Positions 10,807 through 60,629 of a stretch of DNA of 64,000 bases are shown here, piece by piece; position 1 is the stretch's first letter; each line of letters opens with the position of its first letter. The notes under the pieces are model-generated. The model had not been told where the DNA came from and did no database searches. It saw only the letters and a program-made list of their open reading frames with translations. The stretch is taken from contig MFGJ01000001.1 in assembly GCA_001778235.1 (NCBI GenBank), positions 69,302 through 133,301 of the forward strand. Direction: 5' to 3'. The stretch comes from Candidatus Falkowbacteria bacterium RIFOXYC2_FULL_36_12. Lineage in GTDB: Bacteria; Patescibacteriota; Patescibacteriia; UBA11705. A program made the translations under genes and the position numbers.

Positions 10807-11580
10807 TTACTTTTTTTTCACAACAAGTCTAAGGCGCGGGTAAACTAATTGGTGATGTTTGTCTTGTTGTTTGAGATTAATTTCCACTCGGGATTCTACC
10901 ATAATATAACCTGGCATGAAACTTGAGCTGGAAATCGTAGTTGACACATTGGACAATATATTAGCGACAATTACAGAGACATCGTTTGAAGTATAAACTT
11001 CAAATTTAAGCCTACGCTTCAATTCAAGAACTTCAGAATCGTCTCCAAACAACGGATCACTTTGTTTCAAAGCGGAAAAATTAATCGTGAGAAATTTACT
11101 CATCAAATATGATCTAACATCAATCGGAATAAAGCTAAGACTATTGCGGACAATGTAATCTTTACCTGCGAACTGGCACTCAATATTACGAAAAAATTGT
11201 AAAGCATCAAAGGCAGAATCAATTGAATATAATTTTGTCATCGGATCGAACTGATCAAGAACTAACAATCGATTGCCTGAAGACAACTCATAAACAGCAA
11301 ATAGATATTGTGTTTGCCCATTGTCAACATATTTAATACGAACAATATTGAAATTTTTCAAGAAAACTCTAAAAAAAAGAAAATATGTGAAAGCAACAAA
11401 TAAACATAAAATTGAATAAACAAATACTATGACGATATTAACTTTTGTCGCCAGAATCATAATAAGCAAAATCAGGGCGAGACCGACAACTTCCATGATT
11501 CTCGGTATTAGCAGATTAAACAAATATTTCATCTTAGCGAGATTCTCATATTTTTCAATGAACTTGGCAGTCTGGTCCAT
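10807..11580 (-). CDS. Hypothetical membrane protein
   Basis: Two or three N-terminal hydrophobic helices; no known motif. Confidence 0.45.
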   Translation of the reverse strand: MDQTAKFIEKYENLAKMKYLFNLLIPRIMEVVGLALILLIMILATKVNIVIVFVYSILCLFVAFTYFLFFRVFLKNFNIVRIKYVDNGQTQYLFAVYELSSGNRLLVLDQFDPMTKLYSIDSAFDALQFFRNIECQFAGKDYIVRNSLSFIPIDVRSYLMSKFLTINFSALKQSDPLFGDDSEVLELKRRLKFEVYTSNDVSVIVANILSNVSTTISSSSFMPGYIMVESRVEINLKQQDKHHQLVYPRLRLVVKKK

Positions 11581-12524: not shown

Positions 12525-14861
12525 ATGGCGAAACGAGGAAGACCCAGAAAAAATAAAGTCCAAGTCGAAGAAGAATATTATTCACTTAGCCCTGAAACAA
12601 AAAAAGCAATTTTTATCGTTGTTTTATTTGCCCTTGCAGTTATTAGCAGTTTAAGCTTTTTAGACCTTGCGGGTTCAGCCGGACAGCTTATAAGCATGGC
12701 ACTAGCTATTGCTTTTGGACTGACAAAATATTTATTCCCGATTATTTTAATTTGTTTGGCGTATGTTCTAACCCAACCGAGCAAATATGCACCTACATGG
12801 ATTAATTATCTTGGTATACTAATCTTTATACTAAGTTTTAATGGATTAATTCATTTAATTGTTACTAGAAATATTTTGGATACAGCAACTGATTATGCTT
12901 TTGCCGGACTGGGTGGAGGACTATCAGGGTTGGCCTTGAGCTACCCATTAAATCAAGGATTAGGCTTCTGGGCGAGCGTTGTACTGCTACTGGCCTTTAC
13001 CATTATTTCAATTTTATTAATATTTAATACAACCCTTGAAACACTATTAGACCGAACAAAACTTTCTAATATCGGGAGCTTTGTGTCAAATCCGCTAAAA
13101 CGAAATTCCGGAGATGATGATGATTTTGATGAAGAAGATGATGACGACGATGAAGAAGAAAGTGAAACAAATGAAACTGAAGAGATTGAGCTTGAAGAAG
13201 ATGAAAACGAAGGTCTTGAAACGATTGGACAACCAATTAAAACAAGTGGAATATTTAAAAAAACACCAACTGCAGTTGAAAATAAATTTGCTGAAAGTAA
13301 ATTTAGGAATCTGCAATATGATTTGCCACTGGGCTTACTTAATGGTAAATCAACAAAGCCAAAAAGTGGTGATGTAAATCTGGCAATGGAAAGAATTGAA
13401 AGTACTTTGCATAATTTTGGTATAGATATAGAAATGGGAGAGGTTAATGTCGGACCAACAGTTACCCAGTATTCATTTAAACCAGCTGAAGGAATTAAAC
13501 TATCTAGGATAACAACCTTAAACAATGATCTTGCGCTCGCTCTTGCAGCTCACCCAATCAGAATTGAAGCTCCAATCCCTGGAAAATCCCTTGTCGGAAT
13601 AGAAGTTCCAAATCACCAGCCCGCGCTGGTACCACTTCGACCAATTATTGACAATAAAGATTTCCAAGAACAAAAATCAAAACTTTCACTAGGTCTAGGC
13701 AAAGATGTAAGCGGAAAAAATTGGCATTGTGATTTAGGGAAAATGCCACATTTACTAGTTGCAGGAGCCACTGGTTCAGGTAAAAGTGTTTGCTTGAATA
13801 CTATAATTTTAAGTTTGGTATATCAAAATAGTCCTGAAACATTGAGATTAATATTAGTTGACCCAAAAAGAGTTGAGTTTACTGTATATAATGGGATTCC
13901 ACATTTATTAACACCGGTGATCACTGATGTCACAAAAACAATCAATGCTTTGCGCTGGGCAATACATGAAATGGATCAAAGATTTGATATTTTGTCCAAA
14001 GCAGGAAAAAGAAACATTGAAAGTTATAATGAACATAGTCAAGTGAAAATGCCCTACATTGTCATTGTGATTGATGAACTGGCTGATCTAATGACTGCGG
14101 CATCAGCAGAAGTTGAAGGAAGTATAATCAGACTAACTCAAATGGCACGAGCTATTGGTATTCATTTGGTAGTAGCGACCCAAAGACCATCGGTTGATAT
14201 TATTACTGGCTTGATTAAAGCTAATATACCAGGACGAATTGCTTTTTCTGTTGCCTCATCAATGGATTCAAGAACTATTCTTGATTCAATTGGTGCTGAA
14301 AAATTAATTGGAAAAGGCGATATGTTATTCCAAACGGCTGAACTATCAAAACCAAGACGATTACAAGGGGCATTTGTAAGTGACAGAGAAATAAAAAATG
14401 TGGTAAACTTCCTAAAGCAACTGGCTGGAGAACCTGAATATGATGAATCAATCGTAGAAAAACAAAGTAATAAATCAAGTTTTGATTTTGGTGGTGATGA
14501 AGCTGATGATGAATTGTTTGATGAAGCAAAGAGCGTTGTACTTCAAGCCGGGAAAGCCTCTGCCTCACTGCTTCAAAGACGATTGAGAATCGGATATGCC
14601 AGAGCTGCCAGACTGATTGATATTTTGGAAGAAAAAGGCATTGTCGGCGCAGCTGATGGAGCTAGGCCAAGACAAATCCTAATGTCAGAAGAAGATTTTG
14701 ATCAACCAACTCCATCTGTTTTTCGTGGAAGAGACCAAAAACAAGATGATAAAATCAATATCGCAGATGATGAGACTGATTTAGATGAAGAAAAAGATGA
14801 TGATGAAGATAATGAGATAAATCAACTTGACTATACAGATGACGAGGACAAAAACCAATAA
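12525..14861 (+). CDS. ftsK: DNA translocase FtsK/SpoIIIE
   Basis: N-terminal TM helices, acidic linker, Walker A GATGSGKSVCLN, C-terminal gamma winged-helix (LLQRRLRIGYARAARLIDILEEKGIVG). Confidence 0.9.
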   Translation: MAKRGRPRKNKVQVEEEYYSLSPETKKAIFIVVLFALAVISSLSFLDLAGSAGQLISMALAIAFGLTKYLFPIILICLAYVLTQPSKYAPTWINYLGILIFILSFNGLIHLIVTRNILDTATDYAFAGLGGGLSGLALSYPLNQGLGFWASVVLLLAFTIISILLIFNTTLETLLDRTKLSNIGSFVSNPLKRNSGDDDDFDEEDDDDDEEESETNETEEIELEEDENEGLETIGQPIKTSGIFKKTPTAVENKFAESKFRNLQYDLPLGLLNGKSTKPKSGDVNLAMERIESTLHNFGIDIEMGEVNVGPTVTQYSFKPAEGIKLSRITTLNNDLALALAAHPIRIEAPIPGKSLVGIEVPNHQPALVPLRPIIDNKDFQEQKSKLSLGLGKDVSGKNWHCDLGKMPHLLVAGATGSGKSVCLNTIILSLVYQNSPETLRLILVDPKRVEFTVYNGIPHLLTPVITDVTKTINALRWAIHEMDQRFDILSKAGKRNIESYNEHSQVKMPYIVIVIDELADLMTAASAEVEGSIIRLTQMARAIGIHLVVATQRPSVDIITGLIKANIPGRIAFSVASSMDSRTILDSIGAEKLIGKGDMLFQTAELSKPRRLQGAFVSDREIKNVVNFLKQLAGEPEYDESIVEKQSNKSSFDFGGDEADDELFDEAKSVVLQAGKASASLLQRRLRIGYARAARLIDILEEKGIVGAADGARPRQILMSEEDFDQPTPSVFRGRDQKQDDKINIADDETDLDEEKDDDEDNEINQLDYTDDEDKNQ

Positions 14862-33246: not shown

Positions 33247-35001
33247 ATGAGTTCTATTGAAGAATTATTAAAAGATCCAGCAAAATTAAAATCAGGTCAA
33301 GTCAGTGATTCAACTACCAATGATGGGGGAAAAACAAGTATAAAGATAGAAGAAGTTTCAACAAAACAAAAGCTGGAGAAAAAAATGAAAGAAATTTCAA
33401 TCAAAGAAACTGAAAGCAGTGCAAAATCAATTGCGACATCTTCTGGAGTGCCATACATTGATCTGATTGGATTTCCGATCAGCCAAGAGACGATCGCTAT
33501 TATTCCAAAAGATAAATCAATATCCATGAGGGTTATTTGTTTCCTTTATATTGGAGAGGAAATGAGAATTGGGACTACTGAACCAGAGAATGAGGAAATA
33601 AAAGAATACGCATATCAACTTGGAGAAAATAACCGAGCAAAGGTGGAAATTTATAAAATTTCAGAGAATAGCCTGAAGGAAGCACAAAAAGTCTATGATA
33701 AGATTCCTGTTCGGGCAAAAAAGATTGAGGGAGTAAGTGTGTCAGAAGAAGATTTAAATAAATATACAGATATTGGCCGTGATTTCAAAAAATTAAACGA
33801 AACTGTAAAGAAAACTAATATTTCTGACATGGTTTCATTGGTTATTGCGGCGGCGCTCGAATCAGGTTCATCTGATATTCATATTGAAGCAGAAGAAAAA
33901 GATGTAAAAATCCGTTTACGAGTTGACGGGATACTGCATGATGCAGCGGAAATTGAAAAAGATAAATGGTCAAAAATTATTTCCCGTATTAAATTACTTG
34001 CAGGACTAAAAATTAATATTTCGGATAAACCACAGGATGGCAGATTTAGCATTGCAACCAAGGAAGATAAAATTGATGTCAGAACTTCAACCCTGCCAAC
34101 TGCTTATGGTGAAAGCGTGGTGATGAGAATTTTGAATTCCTCTGCCGCGGGAGTTGACTTTGATAAGCTGGGATTGATAGGATTGGCAGCCAAACGGCTT
34201 GAAGAACAGATGGCTAGACCAAATGGGATGATTATAACCACTGGTCCGACCGGTTCTGGTAAGACAACCACTTTGTACTCAATTTTATTTCAATTAAACA
34301 AAGAAGGAACTAAAATAATTACCCTTGAAGATCCAATTGAATATAAACTAAAAGGGATTAATCAAAGTCAAATTGATCATAGCAAACACTATTCATTCGC
34401 TGATGGCTTGAGATCAATTTTGAGACAAGACCCAGATATTGTGATGGTAGGTGAAATGAGGGATAAGGAAACTGCTGATGTTGCGGTAAACGCTGCCTTG
34501 ACCGGTCATTTGGTTCTATCTACTATTCATACAAATAATGCGGCTGGCGCTATCCCAAGGTTTTTAGCCATGGGAGTGAAAGGATTTTTGTTGGCTCCTG
34601 CAATAAACGCGGTTATGGGACAAAGATTGGTTAGAAGAATCTGCCAAGATTGTAAGATAGAATATGAAGCAAAACCTGAAGAATTAGAAAACGCAAAAAA
34701 AATCCTAGAATCCATTCCCGAAGGTCATCCTGATCGGCCTGATTTATCAAATTTGCAGTTCTATACTGGTAAAGGCTGTGAAAAGTGTAATGAGATGAAA
34801 TATAAAGGTAGAGTCGGTATTTATGAAATCATGGTAATGAATAAAGAAATCGAACAGGTAATTTTATCAGAAAAACTGTCTGTCACCCAAATGGAAGAGC
34901 TGGCAATAAAAAATCAAATGCTGACCATGGCACAGGATGGATTGATCAAGGCGATGAAGGGAATGACTACGCTTGAAGAGGTGTTTAGGGTGAGTGAGTA
35001 A
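33247..35001 (+). CDS. pilB: Type IV pilus / type II secretion assembly ATPase (GspE/PilB family)
   Basis: Walker A TGPTGSGKTTTLYS, Asp box, His box, and tetracysteine motif CQDC...CEKC. Confidence 0.85.
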   Translation: MSSIEELLKDPAKLKSGQVSDSTTNDGGKTSIKIEEVSTKQKLEKKMKEISIKETESSAKSIATSSGVPYIDLIGFPISQETIAIIPKDKSISMRVICFLYIGEEMRIGTTEPENEEIKEYAYQLGENNRAKVEIYKISENSLKEAQKVYDKIPVRAKKIEGVSVSEEDLNKYTDIGRDFKKLNETVKKTNISDMVSLVIAAALESGSSDIHIEAEEKDVKIRLRVDGILHDAAEIEKDKWSKIISRIKLLAGLKINISDKPQDGRFSIATKEDKIDVRTSTLPTAYGESVVMRILNSSAAGVDFDKLGLIGLAAKRLEEQMARPNGMIITTGPTGSGKTTTLYSILFQLNKEGTKIITLEDPIEYKLKGINQSQIDHSKHYSFADGLRSILRQDPDIVMVGEMRDKETADVAVNAALTGHLVLSTIHTNNAAGAIPRFLAMGVKGFLLAPAINAVMGQRLVRRICQDCKIEYEAKPEELENAKKILESIPEGHPDRPDLSNLQFYTGKGCEKCNEMKYKGRVGIYEIMVMNKEIEQVILSEKLSVTQMEELAIKNQMLTMAQDGLIKAMKGMTTLEEVFRVSE

Positions 35002-35154
35002 ATTAAAGTAGAAGGTAATTGTAAGTTTAATTTTTGTTTGAGTTGACTTTTTTACTCCACAGATTAGAATCATAACACTATCATAAAACCTAAATACTCA
35101 TATTTCATACTCCTTTTATTCACTTATTATAGCGGATATTAAATACCTAGAATA

Positions 35155-35222
35155 CAAACTTCGCATAAGGCGTAGCCCATTTTGCGAAATTTACTTTTTC
35201 TTTTCGCTACGGCGGACGCATT
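35155..35222 (+). repeat. GC-rich direct repeat, upstream copy, flanking the P-loop kinase gene
   Basis: aacttcgcataaggcgtagcccattttgcgaaatt pairs with the downstream copy aacttcgcattaggcgcagccattatacgcaattc at 35985-36022. Confidence 0.55.
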
Positions 35223-35305
35223 TCTGTAATGAATAAATTGAATTATTTATTTTAAAGAGGGGGAATAAGGAAGAAAACTTTATTAATTTATTATCAAACA
35301 AAAAC

Positions 35306-35881
35306 ATGGCCAAAAGTATATTTATATTCATTTCTGGTTTTGGTGCTACTGGGAAATCTACACTTGGGAAAATTATTTCTGAAAAATTCAATATTCCAAA
35401 CATCGGCAATGATGAAATTAAAGAAATTATTTGGTCTCAAATAGGCTGGGAACATGATAAATCCGAATGGGATAAAGTGGGCAAAATGGCATTTGAATTT
35501 ACCTATTATTTTGTTAATGCCTCCCTGTCCAAAGGGAAAAGCATTATTGCAGAAGCTAATTTCCAGCCAGATAAAAACAATGAGAGATTGAATGAACTGA
35601 AACAGAAATATGGTTGTAAATTGTTACAGATTCATTGTAAAGCCGACAGAGAGGTTATTGTTAATAGGTATAAGGAAAGGTTGGCATCTGAAGATTTTCA
35701 TACTGGGCGTAAGCATGCCATAAAAAATATTTTTGGAGAAGAAAAATTTCTATCGAAAATTGGTATTGGTAGTAGAGTTCTAGATATTGAAGGTGAGACG
35801 CTTGAGATTGATACATCAAATCCAAACACAGTCAACTATGAAGAAATATTTAAATTTATAGAAAAAAATATTAAGGAATAA
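35306..35881 (+). CDS. P-loop kinase-like protein (zeta-toxin / chloramphenicol-phosphotransferase-like NTPase fold)
   Basis: Walker A ISGFGATGKSTLGK close to the N-terminus; ~190 aa, typical of small-molecule or nucleotide kinases. Confidence 0.55.
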   Translation: MAKSIFIFISGFGATGKSTLGKIISEKFNIPNIGNDEIKEIIWSQIGWEHDKSEWDKVGKMAFEFTYYFVNASLSKGKSIIAEANFQPDKNNERLNELKQKYGCKLLQIHCKADREVIVNRYKERLASEDFHTGRKHAIKNIFGEEKFLSKIGIGSRVLDIEGETLEIDTSNPNTVNYEEIFKFIEKNIKE

Positions 35882-35984
35882 GAAAAGAATAAGGAGTCTT
35901 TGTTTTTTGGAACTTCCCGCCTCAGGCGGACAAGCGCACAACAGCGCCTATACGAAATTGCCTGTCGGATAGCTCCGCTACCCG

Positions 35985-36022
35985 TCCGCAACTTCGCATT
36001 AGGCGCAGCCATTATACGCAAT
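35985..36022 (+). repeat. GC-rich direct repeat, downstream copy
   Basis: See the upstream copy; ggcggacg/cgtccgc complementarity adjoins both. Confidence 0.55.
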
Positions 36023-36175
36023 TCAAAAAATATTTTTCTTTTAATTTACGGATCTTTTGATAGGCTTTAATAAGGAATAAATTTGATTTTTTTTTTGATT
36101 AGAGGGGAAATAAAGTGTTTTCTCCGCTATCGCACCGAAAACTATTTATAATAACAGATACTTAACTAAGTTTAT

Positions 36176-37096
36176 ATGAACAATTTACTAGAAATACAAT
36201 CTTTAAACAAAACGCAGCTTACCGCCTTAATCAACAGATCAATAGATTTTAGTAAAAACAAAAAACAGCAATTATTAAAGAATAAACGCTTAGCTCTATT
36301 GTTTTCAGAGGTCTCTTTGAGAACCAAAATGTCGTTTAAAATTGGAATGCAATTATTAGGCGGTATTGCCACAACTGTCTCAATTCCGCACTTAACAAAA
36401 GAATTTGACGGAACAAATAGAGAGGATTTCTTAGATATTTTAAAATCACTGGAAGGTTGGGTAGATGCTTTTGTAATAAGAGATTACACAGGAAAATTAT
36501 TAGAAATGTCATTAAAACATACTAATTTACCTATAATCGATGGCTTTTGCGGTCTTAATCACCCCACACAAACTATTGCAGATCTGGCTATTATTCAAAA
36601 AGAATTTAAAAAAATCAAAAATCTTAAAATATGCTGTGTCTGTCCTCCATTTGGTAGCGGTGTTATGGAATCCTTTGCATACGGTGGGATTATAATGGGG
36701 GCGGATATATATTTCTTGACTCCAGAAAGCAAATATAGTTCTAAAAACAAAAGTTTCAATAAAAAGATTAAAGCATTGGGGAAAAAATGGGGCGGAAAGT
36801 TGACCATAACAACTGATATAAAAGTAGCATTATCAGATGCAAAAATCTTATATGTTGACGAGTGGTGGAAAAATACTAAAAACTTTTTGGATATTAAACT
36901 TGGTAAACTCAAAGTTGACAATGCTTTTTTGCAAAATGCTCTCCCAAATATTAAAATAATGCATTATTTACCAGCTCACCATGATAGAGAAATAACCAAA
37001 GAAATTTTACATTCAAAAAAATCAATAGCTTTTGAGCAAGCCGAGTTCAGATTATATTCTGCAATGGCTAGCTTGGAATATATTTTTAATAGGTAA
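36176..37096 (+). CDS. Divergent transcarbamylase of the ATCase/OTCase fold; substrate unknown
   Basis: SLRTKMSF in place of the STRTR carbamoyl-phosphate motif at the expected position; HPTQ motif; HYLPAHHDREIT in place of HCLPAxRGxE. Confidence 0.6.
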   Translation: MNNLLEIQSLNKTQLTALINRSIDFSKNKKQQLLKNKRLALLFSEVSLRTKMSFKIGMQLLGGIATTVSIPHLTKEFDGTNREDFLDILKSLEGWVDAFVIRDYTGKLLEMSLKHTNLPIIDGFCGLNHPTQTIADLAIIQKEFKKIKNLKICCVCPPFGSGVMESFAYGGIIMGADIYFLTPESKYSSKNKSFNKKIKALGKKWGGKLTITTDIKVALSDAKILYVDEWWKNTKNFLDIKLGKLKVDNAFLQNALPNIKIMHYLPAHHDREITKEILHSKKSIAFEQAEFRLYSAMASLEYIFNR

Positions 37097-37101
37097 TTTT
37101 T

Positions 37102-39042
37102 ATGTCAATTATATCCAAACCATCTTCAGTACAAATTAATGATGAAATTAGATATCAAAAGAAATTAATAAATAAATTTAGATCCTTATCTAATAAATAC
37201 TCAATAAAAATTTTAGATGAAAAATTTATTGTTTATCCGAAAGTATTTGAACCCAATTTGGATTCTGAGATACTTATAAAATCCTTAAAACATTTTAAAT
37301 TTACAAATTTTTTAGAAATCGGTGGTGGGACAGGAATTGTAAGTATTTTTGCGAGTAAATATGCAAAATCTGGGTTAGTTGTTGATATAAATAAAAATGC
37401 GATAAAAAATATTCAGGATAATATAAATTTACATAATTTAAATAAAATACTAACAGTTAATCGCGGTTCTCTTTTTGACAATGTTAGTCAAAAATATGAT
37501 CTAATTATCGCCAATCTTCCATTCATGAAAATAAAATCAGAAGATGTTGTCGCATCTGCTTTTTTTGATGAAAATCTTTCCACATGGAGTACTTTCTTAT
37601 CTCAGGCTTCAGAATATCTAACAGAAAATGGTTCCATATTGACCGTTTTACCAAATTTTTGCGCATTTGATGATATTCTTGAAATGGCTAAAAAAAATCA
37701 TTTTGAATATAAAATCATTGATTCATTAAGGGAAGATTGGAGGGAATTTACGACATTTAAATTATTTAAAAAATCAAATAAAATTTTAGTTGAACAAAGC
37801 AAGAAGATTGCAATATTCCTAAGAATAAATGCACGTAAAAAAAATAAGTATACATATGATACCATTAAAAAACCCTTTTACTTTTATGTTGACGGTTATA
37901 ATGGGAAATTACCCGTGTTTATTTTTTCATCTTTTCCATGCGCTAAATATTGCCAAGGATATTGTACACCTTGTTTATATTCAAACATAACTTGCAGCAG
38001 AGCAAAAAAAGATGAAATATATAATTCATTGATAGTACAAACACAATATATAATAGATAATTTTGACAACCTCATTACTAACAAACAGACAGACGCTGAA
38101 CACAAAAATCTCCATAAAATATATCCCGAAAATAAATTAGTCACCGCAGAGCTATGTGGCGAAGGTTCTTTTTTGGCAAACCCCGAAATACCATCTGAAT
38201 TCAGAAAAAAAATTATTGATATGTTTGTTGAATACTCTCAAAAAGAAAAGCTCAACATGCAACTATTCTTTGAATCAAAAATTTCAGATTTTCTTGAGGT
38301 TTATCAAGAATTTGAAGACCAAAAAGATTTAATTAAAAAATACAATCTTACACTTCTTTTTGGTTTTGAGGCAGTGAATGATTTCACAAGGCAGGTTCTT
38401 TATAACAAGGGCTTACAATTAAGGGACTTTGAAAAAGGAATTAAAAAAGCTCAAGAATTAGGCTTTCGCACAGGCGTTTTTGTCTTTTGCGGTGTACATT
38501 CAATGACGCAAAAAGAAATCATTGAAGACACGAAACAAACCATTGAATATTGCCGAAAGAATAATATTGCCTTTTATTTAATGTTACCAAACTTACAGCC
38601 ATTCACCCTTAATCACTTATTATTTATCAACAATAGATACAATCTGTTAGACCCAAGAACAGTTTTGGAAATAATCAAAATACTTATTGCTGACTCCGAT
38701 GGTACTGACAGTTCTTATTATTTGAACGGACATAACTGGAGCATCGGCGGCTTGACAACACACCCCCAACCAGAAATGTTTCTATTTCAAAACAAAAAAA
38801 ATATTGCTTGTGAGAAATGTTCAAATAGAATCAAAAGGATGATTTATGATCTTGCCAAAAGCTATGATACAGAAAAATTCATGGCAGAAGCAAAAAAACT
38901 GGATACTTGTAAATGCAAAAAAGACTATATTGCATTTACTGAATATGAAGAGCGAAATAAAGAAACCCTGCGGAAGCGAGTAGAAGATAATTTAACTTTT
39001 GCAATGGTAGAAAAAGAAAATTACATTAATACTTTACTATGA
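37102..39042 (+). CDS. Fusion protein: N-terminal class-I SAM methyltransferase-like domain (NLPF motif, HemK/Trm5-like) plus C-terminal radical-SAM domain with extra Cys pairs
   Basis: Motif I LEIGGGTGIV; motif IV DLIIANLPF; radical-SAM CX3CX2C within FPCAKYCQGYCTPC; GGE-like LCGEGSFLANPE; C-terminal CEKC...CKCKKD. Confidence 0.6.
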   Translation: MSIISKPSSVQINDEIRYQKKLINKFRSLSNKYSIKILDEKFIVYPKVFEPNLDSEILIKSLKHFKFTNFLEIGGGTGIVSIFASKYAKSGLVVDINKNAIKNIQDNINLHNLNKILTVNRGSLFDNVSQKYDLIIANLPFMKIKSEDVVASAFFDENLSTWSTFLSQASEYLTENGSILTVLPNFCAFDDILEMAKKNHFEYKIIDSLREDWREFTTFKLFKKSNKILVEQSKKIAIFLRINARKKNKYTYDTIKKPFYFYVDGYNGKLPVFIFSSFPCAKYCQGYCTPCLYSNITCSRAKKDEIYNSLIVQTQYIIDNFDNLITNKQTDAEHKNLHKIYPENKLVTAELCGEGSFLANPEIPSEFRKKIIDMFVEYSQKEKLNMQLFFESKISDFLEVYQEFEDQKDLIKKYNLTLLFGFEAVNDFTRQVLYNKGLQLRDFEKGIKKAQELGFRTGVFVFCGVHSMTQKEIIEDTKQTIEYCRKNNIAFYLMLPNLQPFTLNHLLFINNRYNLLDPRTVLEIIKILIADSDGTDSSYYLNGHNWSIGGLTTHPQPEMFLFQNKKNIACEKCSNRIKRMIYDLAKSYDTEKFMAEAKKLDTCKCKKDYIAFTEYEERNKETLRKRVEDNLTFAMVEKENYINTLL

Positions 39043-39365
39043 TAAAAAACAATATTTGGGGATATCAATTAATCTTAGATTTTCGAAATTGTAATAAAAC
39101 TATTTTTAAAGACGAAGAAAAAATGAAAATGAAACCCTATGGACAACCATTGATTAAAGAGTTTGGCAAAGACAAACTCAAAGGATATTCAGTTTTACAA
39201 TTTATTGAAACATCATCAATTACGATTCATTTTGACAATTTTGGAAATAGAGTTTTTATTGATATTTTTAGCTGTAAAAAATTCAGTAAGCAAAGTGCTG
39301 AAAATTTTTGTAAAAAATTCTTTAACACTAACGATGTAAAGTCATATTTACTGGAAAGATATTAG
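39039..39365 (+). CDS. Pyruvoyl-dependent decarboxylase-like small protein (SpeH/AdoMetDC class 1b-like)
   Basis: IETSSITIHFDNFGNRVFIDIFSC resembles the AdoMetDC self-cleavage/pyruvoyl region (ESHISIHTWPE...VDVFTCG). Overlaps the upstream gene by 4 nt. Confidence 0.45.
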   Translation: MIKNNIWGYQLILDFRNCNKTIFKDEEKMKMKPYGQPLIKEFGKDKLKGYSVLQFIETSSITIHFDNFGNRVFIDIFSCKKFSKQSAENFCKKFFNTNDVKSYLLERY

Positions 39366-39519
39366 TCTTTTTGCTATAACTATAAAGGCAGTAATCGTCT
39401 ACAATAGAAAAATGGTCGATCCCATCGCTTCAACATTAGACCCTGAAGAGACCGGCAAACAAATTTATTAATATTGAATAAAAAACCTATCAAAATACAG
39501 TTAATTGAAAAATATTTTT

Positions 39520-39680
39520 GAACTCACTCCGCTACGCTTCGTGCCACGCTGCGCTTTCCTCCCTTCGGTCGTCAGGGCGTATAATAAGGATTATGAGGAA
39601 AATGGCTCGGCTCGCCATTTTCCCAAATTTGATCCACTTCGTTCCGCAAACTTCTCATAATCCTAACGTTGTGCAAAACA
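39520..39680 (+). repeat. GC-rich structured palindromic element
   Basis: Inverted repeat aaggattatgag/ctcataatcct enclosing the perfect hairpin aaaatggc-tcggctc-gccatttt. Confidence 0.5.
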
Positions 39681-39732
39681 ATAAAAAATGATATAATTAG
39701 AGGATAAAAATTTTTAATTAATTAAGTACAAT

Positions 39733-40044
39733 ATGGAAAGATTAACCAATGAAAAAAATGATGCCATACGTGCTGAGGCGCGACAAAAAGCATTAGAGGA
39801 AGCACGAGAACACGGTTTACAAGTTGGGACAACCGTTGGCTTTTATGACCTTAGAGATAGGATGAGCTATGAATTATTAGAAATTATAGGAGATACTGCA
39901 ATCATTGGATATGAAAATGAACGAGATGGTAAAGTCCGCATAGAAGCTCCCTTACAAGACCTAGTAGATGTAAACCGTGTTCTCAATATTGCTTCCGAAA
40001 TAATGGCCACTAGAAGTAGTATTAGGCCAGAGCAGTGGAATTAA
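39733..40044 (+). CDS. Hypothetical protein (103 aa)
   Basis: ORF with a plausible coiled-coil N-terminus. Confidence 0.35.
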   Translation: MERLTNEKNDAIRAEARQKALEEAREHGLQVGTTVGFYDLRDRMSYELLEIIGDTAIIGYENERDGKVRIEAPLQDLVDVNRVLNIASEIMATRSSIRPEQWN

Positions 40045-40094
40045 AAATTTTTATATTTGAAAGCATTTTTTATTACAGAGTACAACACTGCATA

Positions 40095-40215
40095 GCCGGT
40101 TCGGGCTTTTTACAAAAGCCCTCACCCAAATTGTGCAGGTGTAAGCCTTCGGCTATTATACGACTGCACAACTTCGGCTATGCAGGAATGTTGTGCAAAA
40201 CCGCTCGCACACGCT
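40095..40215 (+). repeat. GC-rich palindromic element
   Basis: ctgcatagccg...cggctatgcag inverted repeat; shares the aacttcgg motif with the repeats flanking the kinase gene. Confidence 0.45.
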
Positions 40216-40363
40216 CCGCGGAACATCAGTTGAGCGCAAATATTAGTGAGTATGATGAATCAAGAAGTTTTCAGGCAAATAAGCTTGACAATGTTGCTCT
40301 AATGCTGTAAGCTGGGATGTTTGATAGAAATAGAAAACACAGCCAAAGGATAGAGGGGTAAAG

Positions 40364-40534
40364 ATGACAGGAACCAAAGTAAGAGATATTCTTAAACTTA
40401 TTGCCAAAAAAAATGCTGCAGATGATTATAAGAGACAACTTTCCGATAGAAAAACTGAAATCGTTAAATTGGGACAATTACCAGCGCAACTGGCTAGACT
40501 AAAATCTTTAAGAGATCAAAAATCGAGTGATTAG
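40364..40534 (+). CDS. Small hypothetical protein (56 aa; MTGTKVRDILKLIAKKNAADDYKRQL...)
   Basis: Short ORF preceded by AGGGGTAAAG; not in the ORF track (<60 aa). Confidence 0.25.
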   Translation: MTGTKVRDILKLIAKKNAADDYKRQLSDRKTEIVKLGQLPAQLARLKSLRDQKSSD

Positions 40535-41379
40535 CTTTCACCCGATTTTTTTAATCTATTGATAACTTTTTGATAGTGCATTAGAAGTATTGGAACGCTT
40601 TCTTTCGGAATATCATCTTGCCACTTTACAATATACTCAACATATTTTTCCAATTGCAAAATAAATTCATTACGAATCATGCTAGCGTATCGACGCAACC
40701 GCTTTTTATCTCCCTCGGTACTGGTTTTTCCTCGTTCTTTTTTCATTAATTCTTCAATCTGAATGGTTGTCTGTGGTGGTAATCCTAAAATAACTTTTGG
40801 CATACGAAATTTACCACAAATATCCGGGTCAGCTTCCAATTGGAAGTATTTAACTCTTTGCAAATAACCTTTTAATATTTCATCGGTAATTTTTTCCTCT
40901 TTGGCCATAATTGTCATCACTTCATCGGTTGAAGCAACATCTACGGCTAAAAATTCGTAACCATGCTTGGCATTATCATCTTCAAGTGCAAGAACAAAAT
41001 CTACTCCATTGGTAAAATCATCATGGAGAGAAGCCGGAGTAATGCAAAACTCACCAGGGAAATCACCATAATTGGCTAATAATTCCATTGAAATGTATTC
41101 AGCTATCTCACTGGTTTCGTGGTAATTCTCTTTTACCCCTGAACCGCGTCGACGAACTGAATCATAAAAAACATCTCCTACTTGATGTCTCTGCGACATT
41201 TTTCTTACTCTTTCAATATCTTTAGCAACTTTTTCTGGTTGGTAAACCCTTTGACCATCTTCATCAATTAGACCCTGGAGGTCTTTAATTCGTGGTCTAG
41301 CTGCATTCCATTCAGAGATTAACTTTTCTGTAAATGTTTCTGGCTGAAACTCCTGAAATCTTTTTTCTGCGAATGCCAT
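40531..41379 (-). CDS. Hypothetical protein (282 aa)
   Basis: ORF only. Confidence 0.4.
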   Translation of the reverse strand: MAFAEKRFQEFQPETFTEKLISEWNAARPRIKDLQGLIDEDGQRVYQPEKVAKDIERVRKMSQRHQVGDVFYDSVRRRGSGVKENYHETSEIAEYISMELLANYGDFPGEFCITPASLHDDFTNGVDFVLALEDDNAKHGYEFLAVDVASTDEVMTIMAKEEKITDEILKGYLQRVKYFQLEADPDICGKFRMPKVILGLPPQTTIQIEELMKKERGKTSTEGDKKRLRRYASMIRNEFILQLEKYVEYIVKWQDDIPKESVPILLMHYQKVINRLKKSGES

Positions 41380-58229: not shown

Positions 58230-58305
58230 TGGTGACCCCACCAGGACTTGAACCTGGATCAAAGGCTTAGGACGCCCCTATTCTATCCAATTGAACTATG
58301 GGATC
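58230..58305 (-). tRNA. tRNA-Arg (anticodon CCT)
   Basis: Cloverleaf: acceptor GATCCCA/TGGGGTC, anticodon loop GTCCTAA, T-arm CCAGGTTCAAGTCCTGG, CCA encoded. Confidence 0.75.
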
Positions 58306-58449
58306 GTAGTTGGTTGTAAGCCCTGAAGTAGATGCTATGCATCACTTCAAGGCAAGCGAGTATGGTTAAACCTGTATTAATGACTGTATTTTACTGTATT
58401 CAATAAATTTATTCAAGGTAATGTTTAATTAGTTTGTGATATTAAATGG

Positions 58450-58469
58450 AATGTTTCACGTGAAACATT
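58450..58469. promoter_or_regulatory. 20-bp perfect palindrome aatgtttcacgtgaaacatt (copy 2)
   Basis: Identical to 57601-57620. Confidence 0.5.
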
Positions 58470-58618
58470 TTTTATTTATAATAATATTTTTTTATTATTT
58501 TTACTAGAATTAAACATATTAAAGTGTCGTAAAATATTAATTATTTAATTATCAAAGAGTAAAAGTTTTGAAGAGTGATAATTAATATTCAAAACGCATG
58601 AAACAAGATTTCCTTTGG

Positions 58619-58919
58619 CCATGCACTATAAACAAGTTTAAGTGCATGGCGAGTAAGCTCGCTGTGGGAAAAGTTTCGAGTGAGGAATAAAAATTAATTA
58701 TTTATACCCTGAAACAAGTTCAGGGTGACAGGTGAGTGTGTTGGTGGCGCGCATTACCGCCCCAGACCTGCCTTCATCAAGATTACAGCAGGCAATCCCC
58801 GAGGTTAGTTATGTTCGTGGTTTTATCACGAGAGAAATTGTTTATACCCTGAAACAAGTTCAGGGTGACAAATTGGGAGATACTGAAACCATGCACTATA
58901 AGCAAGTTTAAGTGCATAG
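58619..58919 (+). repeat. Nested direct repeats. The outer hairpin ccatgcactataaacaagtttaagtgcatgg occurs twice. The inner tataccctgaaacaagttcagggtgaca occurs twice. The core is a ~100-nt conserved element.
   Basis: Outer copies at 58619-58649 and 58889-58919; inner copies at 58703-58730 and 58843-58870; core 58724-58825 is homologous to 30238-30318. Confidence 0.7.
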
Positions 58920-58966
58920 AGTGTAAGCTAAGGACAGGCTTCTCATCCTGTCTGTTTAAAATAAAA

Positions 58967-59043
58967 TGGCGTCCGAGACAGGATTCGAACCTGTGACCTA
59001 CAGCTTAGAAGGCTGTTGCTCTATCCAGCTGAGCTACTCGGAC
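58967..59043 (-). tRNA. tRNA-Arg (anticodon TCT)
   Basis: Cloverleaf: acceptor GTCCGAG/CTCGGAC, D-arm GCTCAGCTGGATAGAGC, anticodon loop CTTCTAA, T-arm ACAGGTTCGAATCCTGT, CCA encoded. Confidence 0.8.
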
Positions 59044-59654: not shown

Positions 59655-60629
59655 TTATTTATTTTTTTTTGATAATGGTTTGCGTTTATTGTGAAAAGCT
59701 TTGTGAACATCTCTAAGTTGTTGATTGGTAATGTGAGTATATATCTGTGTAGTTGTAATGGATGAATGGCCAAGAATTGATTGGACTGAACGAATATCAG
59801 CACCATTCATTAGTAAATCAGTAGCAAAGCTATGACGCATAGTGTGCGGTGTTACACTTTGGTTTATACCTACAAGCTGGGCGTATTTTTTTACTATTCG
59901 TTCTAAACTTCTCGGAGTTAAGCCAATAAAATCTTTTTCTTCTGCAGTTGAATTATTACGAGCTTCAGCGGCTTTATCATGACCAATAAACAAAAACAAG
60001 TTTTTATCTTTGCGAAGCTTTCGATATTCCTGTATCCAATAACGAGCTTGGTTGGATAGAAAGGCGACTCGAATTTTGCCACCCTTACCGCGGATAGAAA
60101 ATTCTGTTTTTTTTATATTTAAATCTTTTTTTAAGCTCGCAAGCTCTGATACACGCATCCCGGTTGAAAAGAATAATTCAAGAATGGCTTTATCACGAAA
60201 TTGAATTATTTTGGGATTTTTTGACTTCAGCGGAGCATCAAGCAAATTGTACAAATCACTGCCTTCAAGAAAACCAACATGGCGCATCTGCAGACGAGCT
60301 AGTTCAACCTTTTCCGGAGCCAATGAACTAATATCTCGCTTGGCTAAATATTTCAAGAATGAACGGATAGCAATCAAATGATAATTTTGAGTGTTTTTTT
60401 GTAATGATTCTTTTGTTTTTGGATCTTTGAACCGATTGAGCCAAAGGCGAAAAAGTCTAACCGCATCGAGACTGATTTTTTCTGGAGTAGTTATATTTGA
60501 GCTCTTGAGCCAACCAGAAAAACGACGCAGATAGAAGTCATAATTGCGAATAGTGCGCTCGGTGCGTCCTTTGGCGACTTCTAAATCCTGAAGAAAGTCT
60601 GTGATTAATTTATCCAGTTTTGAAGACAT
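59655..60629 (-). CDS. xerC: Tyrosine recombinase, XerC/XerD-like
   Basis: C-terminal catalytic pattern HTMRHSFATDLLMNGADIRSVQSILGHSSITTTQIYTHI with a plausible nucleophile Tyr; N-terminal SAM-like core-binding domain. Confidence 0.8.
   Translation of the reverse strand: MSSKLDKLITDFLQDLEVAKGRTERTIRNYDFYLRRFSGWLKSSNITTPEKISLDAVRLFRLWLNRFKDPKTKESLQKNTQNYHLIAIRSFLKYLAKRDISSLAPEKVELARLQMRHVGFLEGSDLYNLLDAPLKSKNPKIIQFRDKAILELFFSTGMRVSELASLKKDLNIKKTEFSIRGKGGKIRVAFLSNQARYWIQEYRKLRKDKNLFLFIGHDKAAEARNNSTAEEKDFIGLTPRSLERIVKKYAQLVGINQSVTPHTMRHSFATDLLMNGADIRSVQSILGHSSITTTQIYTHITNQQLRDVHKAFHNKRKPLSKKNK

What the first reader, a model, noticed from the sequence alone, without database searches (positions are those of the whole stretch)
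35080..39400. Compact cassette: P-loop kinase, divergent transcarbamylase, methyltransferase/radical-SAM fusion, and SpeH-like pyruvoyl decarboxylase
Four plus-strand genes in tight order at 35306-39365, the last two overlapping by 4 nt. Together they combine chemistries that do not form any standard housekeeping pathway I can name: a kinase, an ATCase/OTCase-fold carbamoyltransferase with an altered carbamoyl-phosphate motif (SLRTK for STRTR), a Rossmann SAM-binding domain fused to a radical-SAM domain, and a small protein resembling self-processing SAM/arginine decarboxylases. The kinase gene is bracketed by GC-rich direct repeats, and GC-rich palindromic elements follow the cassette, in an otherwise ~35% GC genome. 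This points to an acquired accessory module. Plausible roles are a hypermodified nucleoside or base pathway, or a carbamoylated polyamine-like metabolite. One analogy, by inference only: phage thymidine hypermodification clusters pair a P-loop kinase with decarboxylase and radical-SAM enzymes, and wyosine-type tRNA pathways pair a Trm5-like SAM-fold enzyme with a radical-SAM enzyme. This is the strongest candidate in the window for an undescribed system.
Basis: partly seen in the sequence, partly recalled or inferred. Interest (0 to 1): 0.8.

Follow-up and report, generated by a model that had tools for sequence, protein, structure and literature searches.

The report
Rare transcarbamylase–radical SAM–decarboxylase operon
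Three of the four flagged genes form a rare, undescribed operon, shared patchily by ultra-small bacteria and archaea, that most likely modifies an ornithine-type amine by carbamoylation, radical chemistry, methylation and decarboxylation; the kinase is only a neighbour.

Summary
The four ORFs exist exactly as described. The window is Candidatus Falkowbacteria RIFOXYD2_FULL_35_9, a CPR bacterium.

Only three genes form a unit:
- a transcarbamylase (36176-37096)
- a methyltransferase/radical-SAM fusion (37102-39042)
- a small pyruvoyl decarboxylase (39039-39365)

The order transcarbamylase, then rSAM, recurs with overlapping or nearly abutting genes in 7 of 8 related lineages from CPR/DPANN-type contigs. 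The decarboxylase follows in 4 of them. The kinase has no homologue near the module anywhere else.

'SLRTK' still fits the family motif SxRT, so the carbamoyl-phosphate site is intact. What diverges is the second-substrate site.

The rSAM belongs to a rare family with no curated model. Its only detectable relatives are RaSEA and MnmL/YhcC, tRNA enzymes that cleave C-N bonds beside a transferase or an N-methylase.

The decarboxylase resembles proven pyruvoyl ornithine decarboxylases (SpeDC) more than AdoMetDC.

The methyltransferase is a separate gene in one relative and absent in the closest ones.

The window copy is partly eroded. A Roadblock/LC7 partner gene survives as a 28-codon remnant, and the decarboxylase has an 11-residue deletion.

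The function is unproven. My best model is tailoring of an ornithine-derived diamine. An RNA or protein modification role is a serious rival.

The parts
36012..36175 (+). Conserved 5' leader or promoter region of the module. It includes the motif GAATAAATTTGA...AGAGGGGAAATAA and a small hairpin, GTTTTC (36117-36122) ... GAAAAC (36137-36142).
   Evidence: 87% identical to the region upstream of the same gene in L033, as high as the coding DNA. Homology with L033 starts here. The motif AGAGGGGRAAWAA has only two exact copies in 64 kb; the other lies upstream of the kinase.
36176..37096 (+). Divergent transcarbamylase, 306 aa. The carbamoyl-phosphate site is intact: FSEVSLRTK at residue 47, HPTQ at 129, HYLP at 263, AEFRLY at 290. 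The second-substrate site is new: VDEWWKN replaces the DxxxSMG loop, and GSGVMES replaces the Asn-Asn segment.
   Evidence: Pfam OTCace_N and OTCace, E about 1e-28. All NCBIfam OTC, PTC and ATC equivalogs score far below cut-off. Alignment to B. anthracis OTCase. Motif positions. Subfamily motifs are conserved in L001, L007, L012, L016 and L018.
37102..37767 (+). N-terminal class I SAM methyltransferase domain of the fusion, residues 1-222. HemK2/Mtq2/RsmC type, with motif I EIGGGTG at residue 72 and an NPPY-like motif IV, NLPF, at residue 138.
   Evidence: PF05175 MTS scores 56.6 bits against a cut-off of 23. NF011529 gives E 8.9e-31 and TIGR00537 E 4e-19, both below cut-off. It is 52% identical to a stand-alone 221-aa gene lying between the transcarbamylase and the rSAM in L018. 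It is absent in L016 and L033.
37768..39042 (+). Radical-SAM domain of the fusion, residues 223-646. Family-invariant Cys280, Cys288 and Cys291 form a Cx7Cx2C pattern. The window also has Cys284, which gives a CxxxCxxC. There is a GEGS motif at residue 353 and a C-terminal invariant Cys4 (570, 573, 603, 605).
39039..39365 (+). SpeDC-like pyruvoyl decarboxylase proenzyme, 108 aa. The predicted self-cleavage site is Thr58/Ser59 in QFIETSSITIH. Catalytic His64 and Cys79 are conserved. It has an 11-residue in-frame deletion in helix 1 relative to its 118-119-aa relatives.
   Evidence: PF02675, E 2.5e-11. Gly, Ser, His and Cys are invariant across AdoMetDC, phage and module homologues. It is 34-36% identical (E 1e-22 to 1e-25) to the ODC-active SpeD2 domains, against 24% (E 2e-5) to T. 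maritima AdoMetDC. The deletion is shown.
39382..39465 (+). Pseudogene remnant, 28 codons, of the Roadblock/LC7-fold partner gene that flanks the module in relatives.
39515..39680 (.). GC-rich intergenic repeat element that replaces the 3' part of the Roadblock gene.
   Evidence: Two diverged copies in L033, at 10950-11120 (reverse strand) and 14610-14800. Modest folding z of -1.6 to -1.7. No Rfam match.
35306..35881 (+). Stand-alone P-loop kinase-fold protein, 191 aa. It is a neighbour, not a conserved member of the module.
   Evidence: Only sub-threshold Pfam and NCBIfam hits. PDB 2RHM 'putative kinase', E 4.6e-18. No homologue in any related locus.
35895..36030 (.). GC-rich hairpin element between the kinase and the module. 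It holds the 21-nt repeat copy at 35990-36010, whose mate is at 35157-35177.
   Evidence: Folding z = -5.9 on the minus strand and -3.2 on the plus strand. The repeat matches 19/21 with E about 0.1.

Best explanation
The unit is a rare, horizontally moving operon of CPR bacteria and DPANN-type archaea. Its order is transcarbamylase, then (methyltransferase), then RaSEA/MnmL-like radical SAM enzyme, then SpeDC-like pyruvoyl decarboxylase. A Roadblock/LC7 protein often flanks it. I think it most likely tailors an ornithine-type diamino acid or diamine.

Proposed steps (all inferred):
1. The self-processing decarboxylase removes the alpha-carboxyl of ornithine or a close analogue.
2. The transcarbamylase transfers a carbamoyl group from carbamoyl phosphate to one amino group, giving a ureido-amine.
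3. The radical SAM enzyme is translationally coupled to the transcarbamylase and probably complexed with it, as RaSEA is with ArcS. It abstracts a hydrogen next to a nitrogen and cleaves or rearranges a C-N bond.
4. Where the HemK-like methyltransferase is present (fused in this window), it N-methylates the exposed amine or amide nitrogen. This parallels MnmL with MnmM.

Shown: the gene order, its conservation, the family assignments and the conserved catalytic residues.
Inferred: the substrates, the order of steps and the product.

The kinase is an unrelated neighbour. The window's copy has lost its Roadblock partner gene.
For: - Conserved coupling. The transcarbamylase lies directly upstream of the rSAM (overlapping by 4 nt in five lineages, 6-9 nt apart in L016/L033) in L001, L007-10, L012-15, L016/17/33 and L020, and with a methyltransferase gene between them in L018 and the window. 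The decarboxylase overlaps the rSAM's 3' end in four lineages.
- Transcarbamylase. The CP motifs are intact. The Asp of the 240s loop is kept, while the ornithine alpha-carboxylate contacts are replaced.
- Decarboxylase. Ser, His and Cys are invariant. It shares the QxIETS motif and 34-36% identity with SpeD2 domains whose ODC activity was shown by mutagenesis.
- rSAM. All 11 family members hit only RaSEA, and weakly MnmL. Both are C-N cleaving enzymes. One works in an obligate complex with a transferase (PMC11298593). The other is in an operon with, or fused to, an N-methylase.
- Amino-acid context in relatives. RimK-type ATP-grasp genes lie within 0-3.3 kb in three lineages, and aminotransferases lie next to the rSAM in L003.
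- Distant parallel. A distant rSAM operon (L005) again carries a methyltransferase plus a non-homologous pyruvoyl decarboxylase, PvlArgDC.
Against: - No substrate was tested, and nothing identifies the amine.
- The rSAM's only relatives, and the methyltransferase's nearest families (HemK2/Mtq2, PrmC, RsmC, TrmN6), act on tRNA, rRNA or proteins, not small molecules.
- The decarboxylase belongs to a very large CPR/DPANN family with 4377 hits. Most members cannot be linked to the rare rSAM, so its adjacency may reflect general polyamine metabolism.
- The decarboxylase is absent next to the pair in L001 and L012.
- No source of carbamoyl phosphate is visible in the 64-kb window.
- Only two of the four SpeDC diagnostic residues are clearly present, with positions inferred from an alignment.
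- The window copy shows signs of erosion.
Confidence: 0.4

Rival explanations
1. The module modifies a macromolecule. The rSAM and its methyltransferase act on a tRNA, rRNA or protein nitrogen, as RaSEA, MnmL/YhcC-MnmM and Elp3 do. The transcarbamylase and decarboxylase only make the small amine or ureido donor that gets attached and then trimmed.
For: RaSEA (11 of 11 members) and MnmL (3 of 11) are the only curated families the rSAM resembles. MnmL occurs fused to N-methyltransferases, the same architecture as the window's fusion. The methyltransferase domain's best hits are protein and RNA N-methylases, plus a DNA-methylase-type PADLOC model at E 1e-19. GNAT-rSAM fusions among the wider family recall Elp3. 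A distant relative lies beside a dnd DNA-modification cluster.
Against: All these similarities fall far below family cut-offs: 55 bits against 212 for RaSEA. No ArcS, TGT or MnmE/G-type partner and no RNA-binding domain accompanies the module in any locus. No transcarbamylase is known to feed a nucleic-acid modification. The neighbours in relatives are amino-acid enzymes.
Confidence: 0.3
2. This is ordinary arginine/polyamine catabolism. The transcarbamylase works phosphorolytically, splitting citrulline or N-carbamoylputrescine to carbamoyl phosphate for ATP. The decarboxylase turns ornithine into putrescine. The rSAM is a passenger.
For: The best NCBIfam scores are to ornithine and putrescine carbamoyltransferases. 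The decarboxylase is SpeDC-like. CPR bacteria are fermenters, for which such pathways give energy (general knowledge).
Against: The protein scores 178 bits against 281 for OTC and 144 against 500 for PTC. The ornithine-binding DxxxSMG and Asn-Asn elements are replaced. No carbamate kinase, arginine deiminase or agmatine deiminase lies in the window or in any related locus. The rSAM is the most tightly coupled partner, overlapping or nearly abutting the transcarbamylase gene in 7 lineages, which does not fit a passenger.
Confidence: 0.1
3. One reading: a four-gene nucleoside or base hypermodification cassette that includes the kinase, analogous to phage thymidine hypermodification or wyosine synthesis.
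For: The kinase weakly resembles polynucleotide and thymidylate kinases in PHROGs, E about 1e-5. Its upstream region shares a 39-nt motif with the module's leader.
Against: No kinase homologue occurs in any of the related loci. The rSAM has no viral or plasmid relatives. There is no TYW1 or Trm5 family-level match. The kinase is separated from the module by 294 nt and a hairpin element.
Confidence: 0.05
4. In this particular genome the module is a decaying remnant with no current function.
For: The Roadblock partner gene is reduced to 28 codons. There is an 11-residue deletion in helix 1 of the decarboxylase. A repeat element has been inserted at the 3' end.
Against: The transcarbamylase and the 646-aa fusion ORFs are intact, with all catalytic motifs. 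The identical fusion protein was recorded on 7 contigs. The leader is conserved. The Roadblock protein is not an obligate partner elsewhere: it is not adjacent in the L003 context, and the L020 and L018 contigs end too soon to tell.
Confidence: 0.1

Closest known systems
ArcS-RaSEA (archaeosine synthesis, Euryarchaeota)
   Same: A group-transfer enzyme is paired with a TIGR01210-type radical SAM enzyme. The rSAM acts on the transferase's product by cleaving a C-N bond, and the two proteins form an obligate complex. RaSEA is the only curated family matched by all 11 members of the window's rSAM family.
   Different: The score is 55 bits against a cut-off of 212. The partner here is a transcarbamylase, not an ArcS/TGT-like protein. 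No PUA or tRNA-binding domain is present. The cysteine motif is Cx7Cx2C, with an extra C-terminal Cys4. The hosts are CPR bacteria and DPANN-type archaea.
MnmL/YhcC with MnmM or MnmC2 (mnm5s2U tRNA pathway)
   Same: An Elongator-like-clade rSAM removes an alkyl group from a nitrogen, and an adjacent or fused SAM N-methyltransferase methylates the freed amine. The methyltransferase+rSAM fusion architecture is the same.
   Different: TIGR01212 is matched weakly by only 3 of 11 family members, and not by the window protein. The methyltransferase is of the HemK/MTS type, not MnmM or MnmC2. A transcarbamylase and a decarboxylase play no part in that pathway.
SpeDC, pyruvoyl-dependent L-ornithine decarboxylases derived from AdoMetDC (Li et al. 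2023, PMC10407285)
   Same: Small class 1b AdoMetDC fold. Conserved Gly, Ser, His and Cys. The QxIETS processing motif. 34-36% identity to the ODC-active SpeD2 domains. Abundant in CPR and DPANN.
   Different: The SpeDC diagnostic Tyr is Phe here, and the diagnostic Phe is variable in the family. Known speDC genes cluster with polyamine genes (hss, speY, speE, casdh/casdc), not with a transcarbamylase or an rSAM. Activity is untested.
Ornithine and putrescine transcarbamylases (arginine/agmatine deiminase pathways)
   Same: The two-domain fold and the SxRT, HPxQ and HxLP motifs. These are the best HMM scores among curated families.
   Different: It falls below every equivalog cut-off. The 240s loop is VDEWW(K/E)N instead of DxxxSMG (OTC). 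The Asn-Asn segment is replaced. No deiminase or carbamate kinase is nearby.
Elp3 (rSAM plus acetyltransferase, tRNA cm5U)
   Different: The domain order is reversed. There is no family-level sequence match. The window protein carries a methyltransferase, not a GNAT.

Membership tests
Transcarbamylase superfamily (ATCase/OTCase fold) | Two Pfam domains plus the Fx(E/K..)xSxRT, HPxQ and HxLP motifs | tested here: met
   PF02729 and PF00185, E about 1e-28. FSEVSLRT, HPTQ and HYLP are present. Motif definition from PMC4581275.
Ornithine carbamoyltransferase (ArgF/ArcB) | Equivalog score, plus the ornithine-binding DxxxSMG loop and Asn-Asn segment | tested here: not met
   TIGR00658 scores 177.7 bits against a cut-off of 280.85. 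The loop is VDEWWKN and the segment is GSGVMES.
Putrescine carbamoyltransferase | Equivalog score (TIGR04384) | tested here: not met
   144.2 bits against a cut-off of 500.
Radical SAM superfamily | Partial TIM barrel with a three-Cys cluster motif and a SAM-binding GGE-like motif | tested here: met
RaSEA (TIGR01210) | Equivalog score, and an ArcS partner | tested here: not met
   55.2 bits against a cut-off of 212.15. All 11 family members are below cut-off. No ArcS-like gene occurs in any locus.
MnmL/YtqA/YhcC (TIGR01212) | Equivalog score, and an MnmM/MnmC2 partner | tested here: not met
   No hit for the window protein. Three of 11 relatives reach only E about 0.004. The fused methyltransferase is MTS/HemK type.
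HemK2/Mtq2 or PrmC glutamine N5-methyltransferases | Equivalog score, and the NPPY motif | tested here: not met
   NF011529 scores 106.8 against 162. TIGR00537 scores 69 against 87. TIGR03534 scores 55 against 199. The motif is NLPF. The generic MTS domain PF05175 is met, 56.6 against 23.
Class 1b AdoMetDC family (PF02675), self-processing pyruvoyl enzymes | Pfam score, and conserved Ser, His and Cys (T. maritima S63, H68, C83) | tested here: met
   44.3 bits against a cut-off of 25. S59, H64 and C79 are invariant in alignment A5. Actual self-cleavage was not testable.
Bona fide AdoMetDC (SpeH, TIGR03330) | Equivalog score, and the conserved Pro of HTWPE | tested here: not met
   22.7 bits against a cut-off of 75.65. 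The sequence is HFDNFG, with no Pro.
SpeDC pyruvoyl ornithine decarboxylase | Four diagnostic residues Gln, Thr, Phe and Tyr around the processing site | tested here: inconclusive
   Gln54 and Thr58 are present. Phe65 is present in the window but variable in relatives. The Tyr position is Phe. Positions were inferred from alignment to SpeD2 sequences because the paper's figure is not held. Identity is 34-36%.
Roadblock/LC7 | An alpha-beta-beta-alpha-beta-beta-beta-alpha fold of about 120 aa | tested here: met
Phage thymidine hypermodification / wyosine (TYW1-TYW2) clusters | A conserved kinase or Trm5-like partner and the matching rSAM family, with viral or tRNA-pathway relatives | tested here: not met
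   The kinase is not conserved with the module. No viral, phage or plasmid relatives. PF02475 reaches E 0.0018, below cut-off. No TYW1 hit.

The most novel reading that the evidence does not exclude
The transcarbamylase and the RaSEA/MnmL-like rSAM form a complex that carries out a previously unknown reaction type: carbamoyl transfer followed by radical C-N chemistry, optionally capped by N-methylation. The product would be either a new ureido or N-methyl-ureido polyamine-like metabolite, or a new carbamoyl-derived modification on tRNA, rRNA or a translation factor, in host-dependent CPR bacteria and DPANN archaea. This would define a new rSAM family and a new use of carbamoyl phosphate.
Probability: 0.3. 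Interest if true: 0.8.

Novelty: new variant of a known kind. Interest (0 to 1): 0.6.

Why it matters
CPR bacteria and DPANN archaea have very small genomes and few biosynthetic pathways, so a conserved accessory operon that moves between them is likely to matter for their lifestyle.

The rSAM family has no curated model, no solved relative and only about 70 representative clusters in 1.84 billion proteins. Its fixed coupling to a transcarbamylase is unreported. Working out the reaction would do four things:
- assign a function to a new rSAM family;
- add a new second substrate to the transcarbamylases, several of which are still orphans;
- extend the recently found pyruvoyl ODC/ADC family to a new context;
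- test whether the 'transferase plus C-N cleaving rSAM plus N-methylase' logic of archaeosine and mnm5U synthesis also operates outside tRNA.

Tried and rejected
- Rfam on the whole window and, permissively, on 34990-40560. Only three tRNAs were found, and nothing in or near the module.
- Promoter and terminator scan. No enrichment over shuffles.
- PDB sequence search with the rSAM profile. No hit even at E = 1.
- The AlphaFold-database fold library was not available.
- Scans of genome and metagenome contig collections with the rSAM profile added only a few loci. The viral, phage and plasmid collections gave none.
- PADLOC. No defence-system identity. The only hits were a methylase-domain match to mad2 and a weak VakA match for the kinase.
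- The idea that the ~121-aa partner is a carrier protein or a peptide substrate was dropped. It has a Roadblock/LC7 fold and also occurs alone in other genomes.
- The idea that SLRTK marks a changed carbamoyl-phosphate site was dropped after reading the family review.
- The 'direct repeats' around the kinase are a single 19/21 match with E about 0.1.
- Literature searches for any described combination of these enzymes found nothing relevant.
- Pfam on 20 further window ORFs found only housekeeping genes and no carbamoyl-phosphate or polyamine enzymes.

Full report
**What is in the sequence**

The window is from Candidatus Falkowbacteria bacterium RIFOXYD2_FULL_35_9, a CPR/Patescibacteria bacterium. 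The 646-aa protein is 100% identical to that organism's A2533_04710.

- 35306-35881, 191 aa
- 36176-37096, 306 aa
- 37102-39042, 646 aa
- 39039-39365, 108 aa

The last three are packed tightly, with a 5-nt gap and then a 4-nt overlap. The first is separated from them by 294 nt, and that gap contains a 120-nt GC-rich hairpin element.

The surrounding genes are housekeeping: YidC, GroEL, YchF, PilB, TsaE, TsaD, H+-PPase, trigger factor and Sua5.

**Domain assignments**

*Kinase.* The 191-aa protein has only sub-threshold P-loop kinase hits (AAA_33, zeta toxin, shikimate kinase and others). Its best solved relative is the uncharacterised 'putative kinase' 2RHM, E 4.6e-18.

*Transcarbamylase.* The 306-aa protein is a clear member of the transcarbamylase superfamily (OTCace_N plus OTCace, E about 1e-28). 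It falls far below the curated cut-offs of every ornithine, putrescine, aspartate, acetylornithine and YgeW equivalog.
The family-defining motifs are Fx(E/K..)xSxRT, HPxQ and HxLP (PMC4581275). The protein has FSEVSLRT, HPTQ and HYLP, plus the C-terminal Arg in AEFRLY.
- The second-substrate site is what diverges. The OTCase DxxxSMG loop is VDEWWKN, so the Asp is kept. The Asn-Asn segment that holds ornithine's carboxylate is GSGVMES.
- These substitutions are conserved in the orthologues of five other lineages.

*Fusion protein.* The 646-aa protein has two parts.
- Residues 1-222 form a class I methyltransferase of the MTS/HemK2/Mtq2/RsmC type. It has motif I EIGGGTG and an NPPY-like NLPF.
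- Residues 223-646 form a radical SAM domain.

*Decarboxylase.* The 108-aa protein matches PF02675 (AdoMet_dc) at E 2.5e-11, but not the AdoMetDC equivalog.

**Do the genes travel together?**

Homologues of the rSAM domain are rare. A word-indexed search of 5.8 billion proteins found 12. An exhaustive profile search of 1.84 billion representatives found 68 clusters at E<1e-30.

For the close subfamily (>50% identity) I recovered genomic context in eight lineages. The table summarises it.

| Lineage | Source | Transcarbamylase and rSAM | Decarboxylase after the rSAM |
|---|---|---|---|
| Window | Falkowbacteria | methyltransferase fused in between | yes |
| L016/L017/L033/L034 | closest relatives | adjacent, 6-9 nt apart | yes |
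| L007-L010 | Tara ocean contigs | adjacent, overlapping by 4 nt | yes |
| L020 | - | adjacent, overlapping by 4 nt | yes |
| L001 | Staskawiczbacteria | adjacent, overlapping by 4 nt | no |
| L012-15 | - | adjacent, overlapping by 4 nt | no |
| L018 | - | separate methyltransferase gene in between | contig ends |
| L003 | - | no transcarbamylase; an aminotransferase instead | no |

So the transcarbamylase is paired with the rSAM in seven of the eight lineages. The decarboxylase follows, overlapping the rSAM gene, in four.

Other partners:
- *Methyltransferase.* It is a separate 221-aa gene in L018, 52% identical to the window's domain. It is absent from the closest relatives, L016 and L033. 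All 11 homologues are unfused.
- *A ~121-aa protein.* It flanks the module in L001, L007-10, L012-15 and L016/L033.
- *RimK-type ATP-grasp.* A gene lies within 0-3.3 kb in three lineages.
- *Kinase.* It has no homologue in any related locus.

The conserved unit is therefore transcarbamylase-rSAM, usually with the decarboxylase and optionally with the methyltransferase. The kinase is not part of it.

**Mobility and state of the window's copy**

L033 is a 305-kb contig from a close relative. Its proteins are 81% (transcarbamylase), 87% (rSAM) and 76% (decarboxylase) identical to the window's.
- Only the module, about 165 nt of its upstream leader (87% identical) and one GC-rich repeat family are shared with the window. 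The flanks are not syntenic.
- In L033 a tyrosine recombinase gene lies directly upstream of the module.
- Together with the patchy spread over Patescibacteria and DPANN-type contigs, this supports an accessory, horizontally moving module.

The window's copy is partly eroded:
- A ~100-nt deletion removed the start of the 121-aa gene.
- Homology ends after its codon ~48, where a GC-rich repeat begins. This leaves a 28-codon remnant at 39382-39465.
- The decarboxylase lacks 11 residues of helix 1 that all its 118-119-aa relatives have.
- The transcarbamylase and fusion ORFs are intact.

**What the parts most resemble**

*The rSAM.*
- The family-invariant cysteines are Cx7Cx2C plus a C-terminal CxxC...CxC.
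- At sequence level, all 11 family members match only TIGR01210 (RaSEA), best E 8.8e-26 and all far below cut-off. Three weakly match TIGR01212 (MnmL/YtqA).
- Both of these are tRNA enzymes that cleave a C-N bond. RaSEA converts preQ0-lysine to archaeosine and works in an obligate complex with the transferase ArcS (PMC11298593). MnmL/YhcC removes the carboxymethyl group from cmnm5s2U, and is encoded with, or fused to, the N-methylase that then methylates the freed amine.
- The window's methyltransferase+rSAM fusion therefore has a precedent in architecture and logic, though not in family membership.

*The decarboxylase.*
- It is 34-36% identical (E 1e-22 to 1e-25) to the C-terminal SpeD2 domains of the D. 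phosphitoxidans and Omnitrophica fusion proteins. Mutagenesis of Ser229 proved the ornithine decarboxylase activity of the D. phosphitoxidans domain. Identity to T. maritima AdoMetDC is only 24%.
- It shares their QxIETS processing motif, which places cleavage at Thr58/Ser59.
- It belongs to a very large CPR/DPANN family with 4377 hits. Only some of the SpeDC diagnostic residues are clearly present, so the substrate is likely a basic amino acid but is unproven.

**Most likely mechanism**

What is shown:
- an operon with translational coupling;
- an intact carbamoyl-phosphate site, with a new amine site that keeps the Asp contacting a distal amino group in OTCase and PTCase;
- a self-processing-competent, SpeDC-like decarboxylase;
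- an rSAM whose only relatives do C-N cleavage next to a transferase or an N-methylase;
- an N-directed methyltransferase.

What I infer is that the module tailors an ornithine-type diamino acid or diamine:
1. Decarboxylation.
2. Carbamoylation of one amino group, giving a ureido-amine.
3. Radical hydrogen abstraction next to a nitrogen, with C-N cleavage or rearrangement.
4. N-methylation, where the methyltransferase is present.

Two observations in relatives favour small-molecule amino-acid chemistry. Amino-acid enzymes lie near the rSAM (aminotransferases and RimK-like ligases). A distant operon again combines an rSAM, a methyltransferase and a non-homologous pyruvoyl decarboxylase (L005). 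I put this model at about 0.4.

**Rivals**

- *Macromolecule modification, about 0.3.* The rSAM and methyltransferase would act on tRNA, rRNA or a protein, and the other two enzymes would make the donor. Everything the rSAM and the methyltransferase resemble acts on macromolecules. The wider family also includes Elp3-like GNAT fusions.
- *Plain catabolic OTC/PTC plus ODC, about 0.1.* This is unlikely because the ornithine site is replaced, there is no deiminase or carbamate kinase, and the rSAM is the most constant partner.
- *The four-gene kinase-containing hypermodification cassette, about 0.05.* The evidence does not support it.
- *Decay in this genome, about 0.1.* Not exclusive of the others.

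**Novelty**

I found no description of this gene combination. The rSAM family has no curated model. Each component belongs to a known superfamily, and the transferase / C-N-cleaving rSAM / N-methylase logic is known from tRNA pathways. I therefore rate it a new variant of a known kind, with a real chance (about 0.3) that the chemistry is new.

Interest is moderate to high. It is a well-supported, rare, mobile operon of unknown function in organisms with minimal metabolism, and it is directly testable. No function has been demonstrated, however, and the copy in this window is partly eroded.

Noticed in passing
window 40075-40224: A 150-nt GC-rich, nearly perfect long hairpin. MFE is -64.6 kcal/mol, with z = -7.15 on the + strand and -5.96 on the - strand. 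It lies in an intergenic stretch and overlaps a spurious ORF at 40035-40310. It has no Rfam match. It could be a structured RNA or a palindromic mobile element.
   Followed up: partly
window 35895-36030: A GC-rich hairpin element between the kinase and the module, with z = -5.9 on the minus strand. It carries one copy of the 21-nt repeat whose mate lies upstream of the kinase at 35157-35177.
   Followed up: partly
window 39515-39680; L033 10950-11120 (reverse strand) and 14610-14800: A dispersed GC-rich intergenic repeat family shared by the window and a related 305-kb contig. In the window, one copy sits where the 3' part of the Roadblock gene used to be.
   Followed up: partly
window 35227-35265 and 36071-36109: A 39-nt leader-like motif, GAATAAATT..GA...AGAGGGGRAAWAA, lies upstream of both the kinase and the transcarbamylase. 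The AGAGGGGRAAWAA core has only these two exact copies in 64 kb. The motif is conserved upstream of the module in L033. This may mean shared regulation, even though the kinase is not conserved with the module.
   Followed up: partly
L005/L006, L011, L021, L028, L030: Distant relatives of the rSAM (27-35% identity) form a different operon: a double rSAM of about 800 aa, a flavodoxin-like protein and a protein of about 940 aa. They occur in Firmicutes-type mobile or defence-like islands. In L021 the operon lies beside dndBCDE and a cysteine desulfurase. In L005 it comes with a methyltransferase and a pyruvoyl arginine decarboxylase, next to an integrase and a Mob relaxase.
   Followed up: partly
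P0048, P0049, P0054 (representative library): N-terminal GNAT acetyltransferase domains fused to the same rSAM family. This is an Elp3-like pairing in reversed order.
   Followed up: partly
L022 190-2705 and 4854-7955: Two tandem rSAM genes of this wider family, followed by adenylate-forming-enzyme-like ORFs and a 1033-aa TIR-domain STAND-like protein. This suggests a defence-island context for another branch.
   Followed up: no
window 59655-60629 (-), 58230-59043: A tyrosine recombinase gene (Phage_integrase, E 5.5e-37) next to two tRNA-Arg genes. It is 47% identical over 76 residues to the recombinase that flanks the module in L033. It may be XerC/D-like or may mark an integrated element.
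   Followed up: no
L023 8001-8366 and 9921-10286; L024-L026: The Roadblock/LC7-fold 121-aa family (32 members) is a CPR/DPANN-specific small protein missed by Pfam. It occurs singly, possibly in two copies, away from the module.
   Followed up: partly
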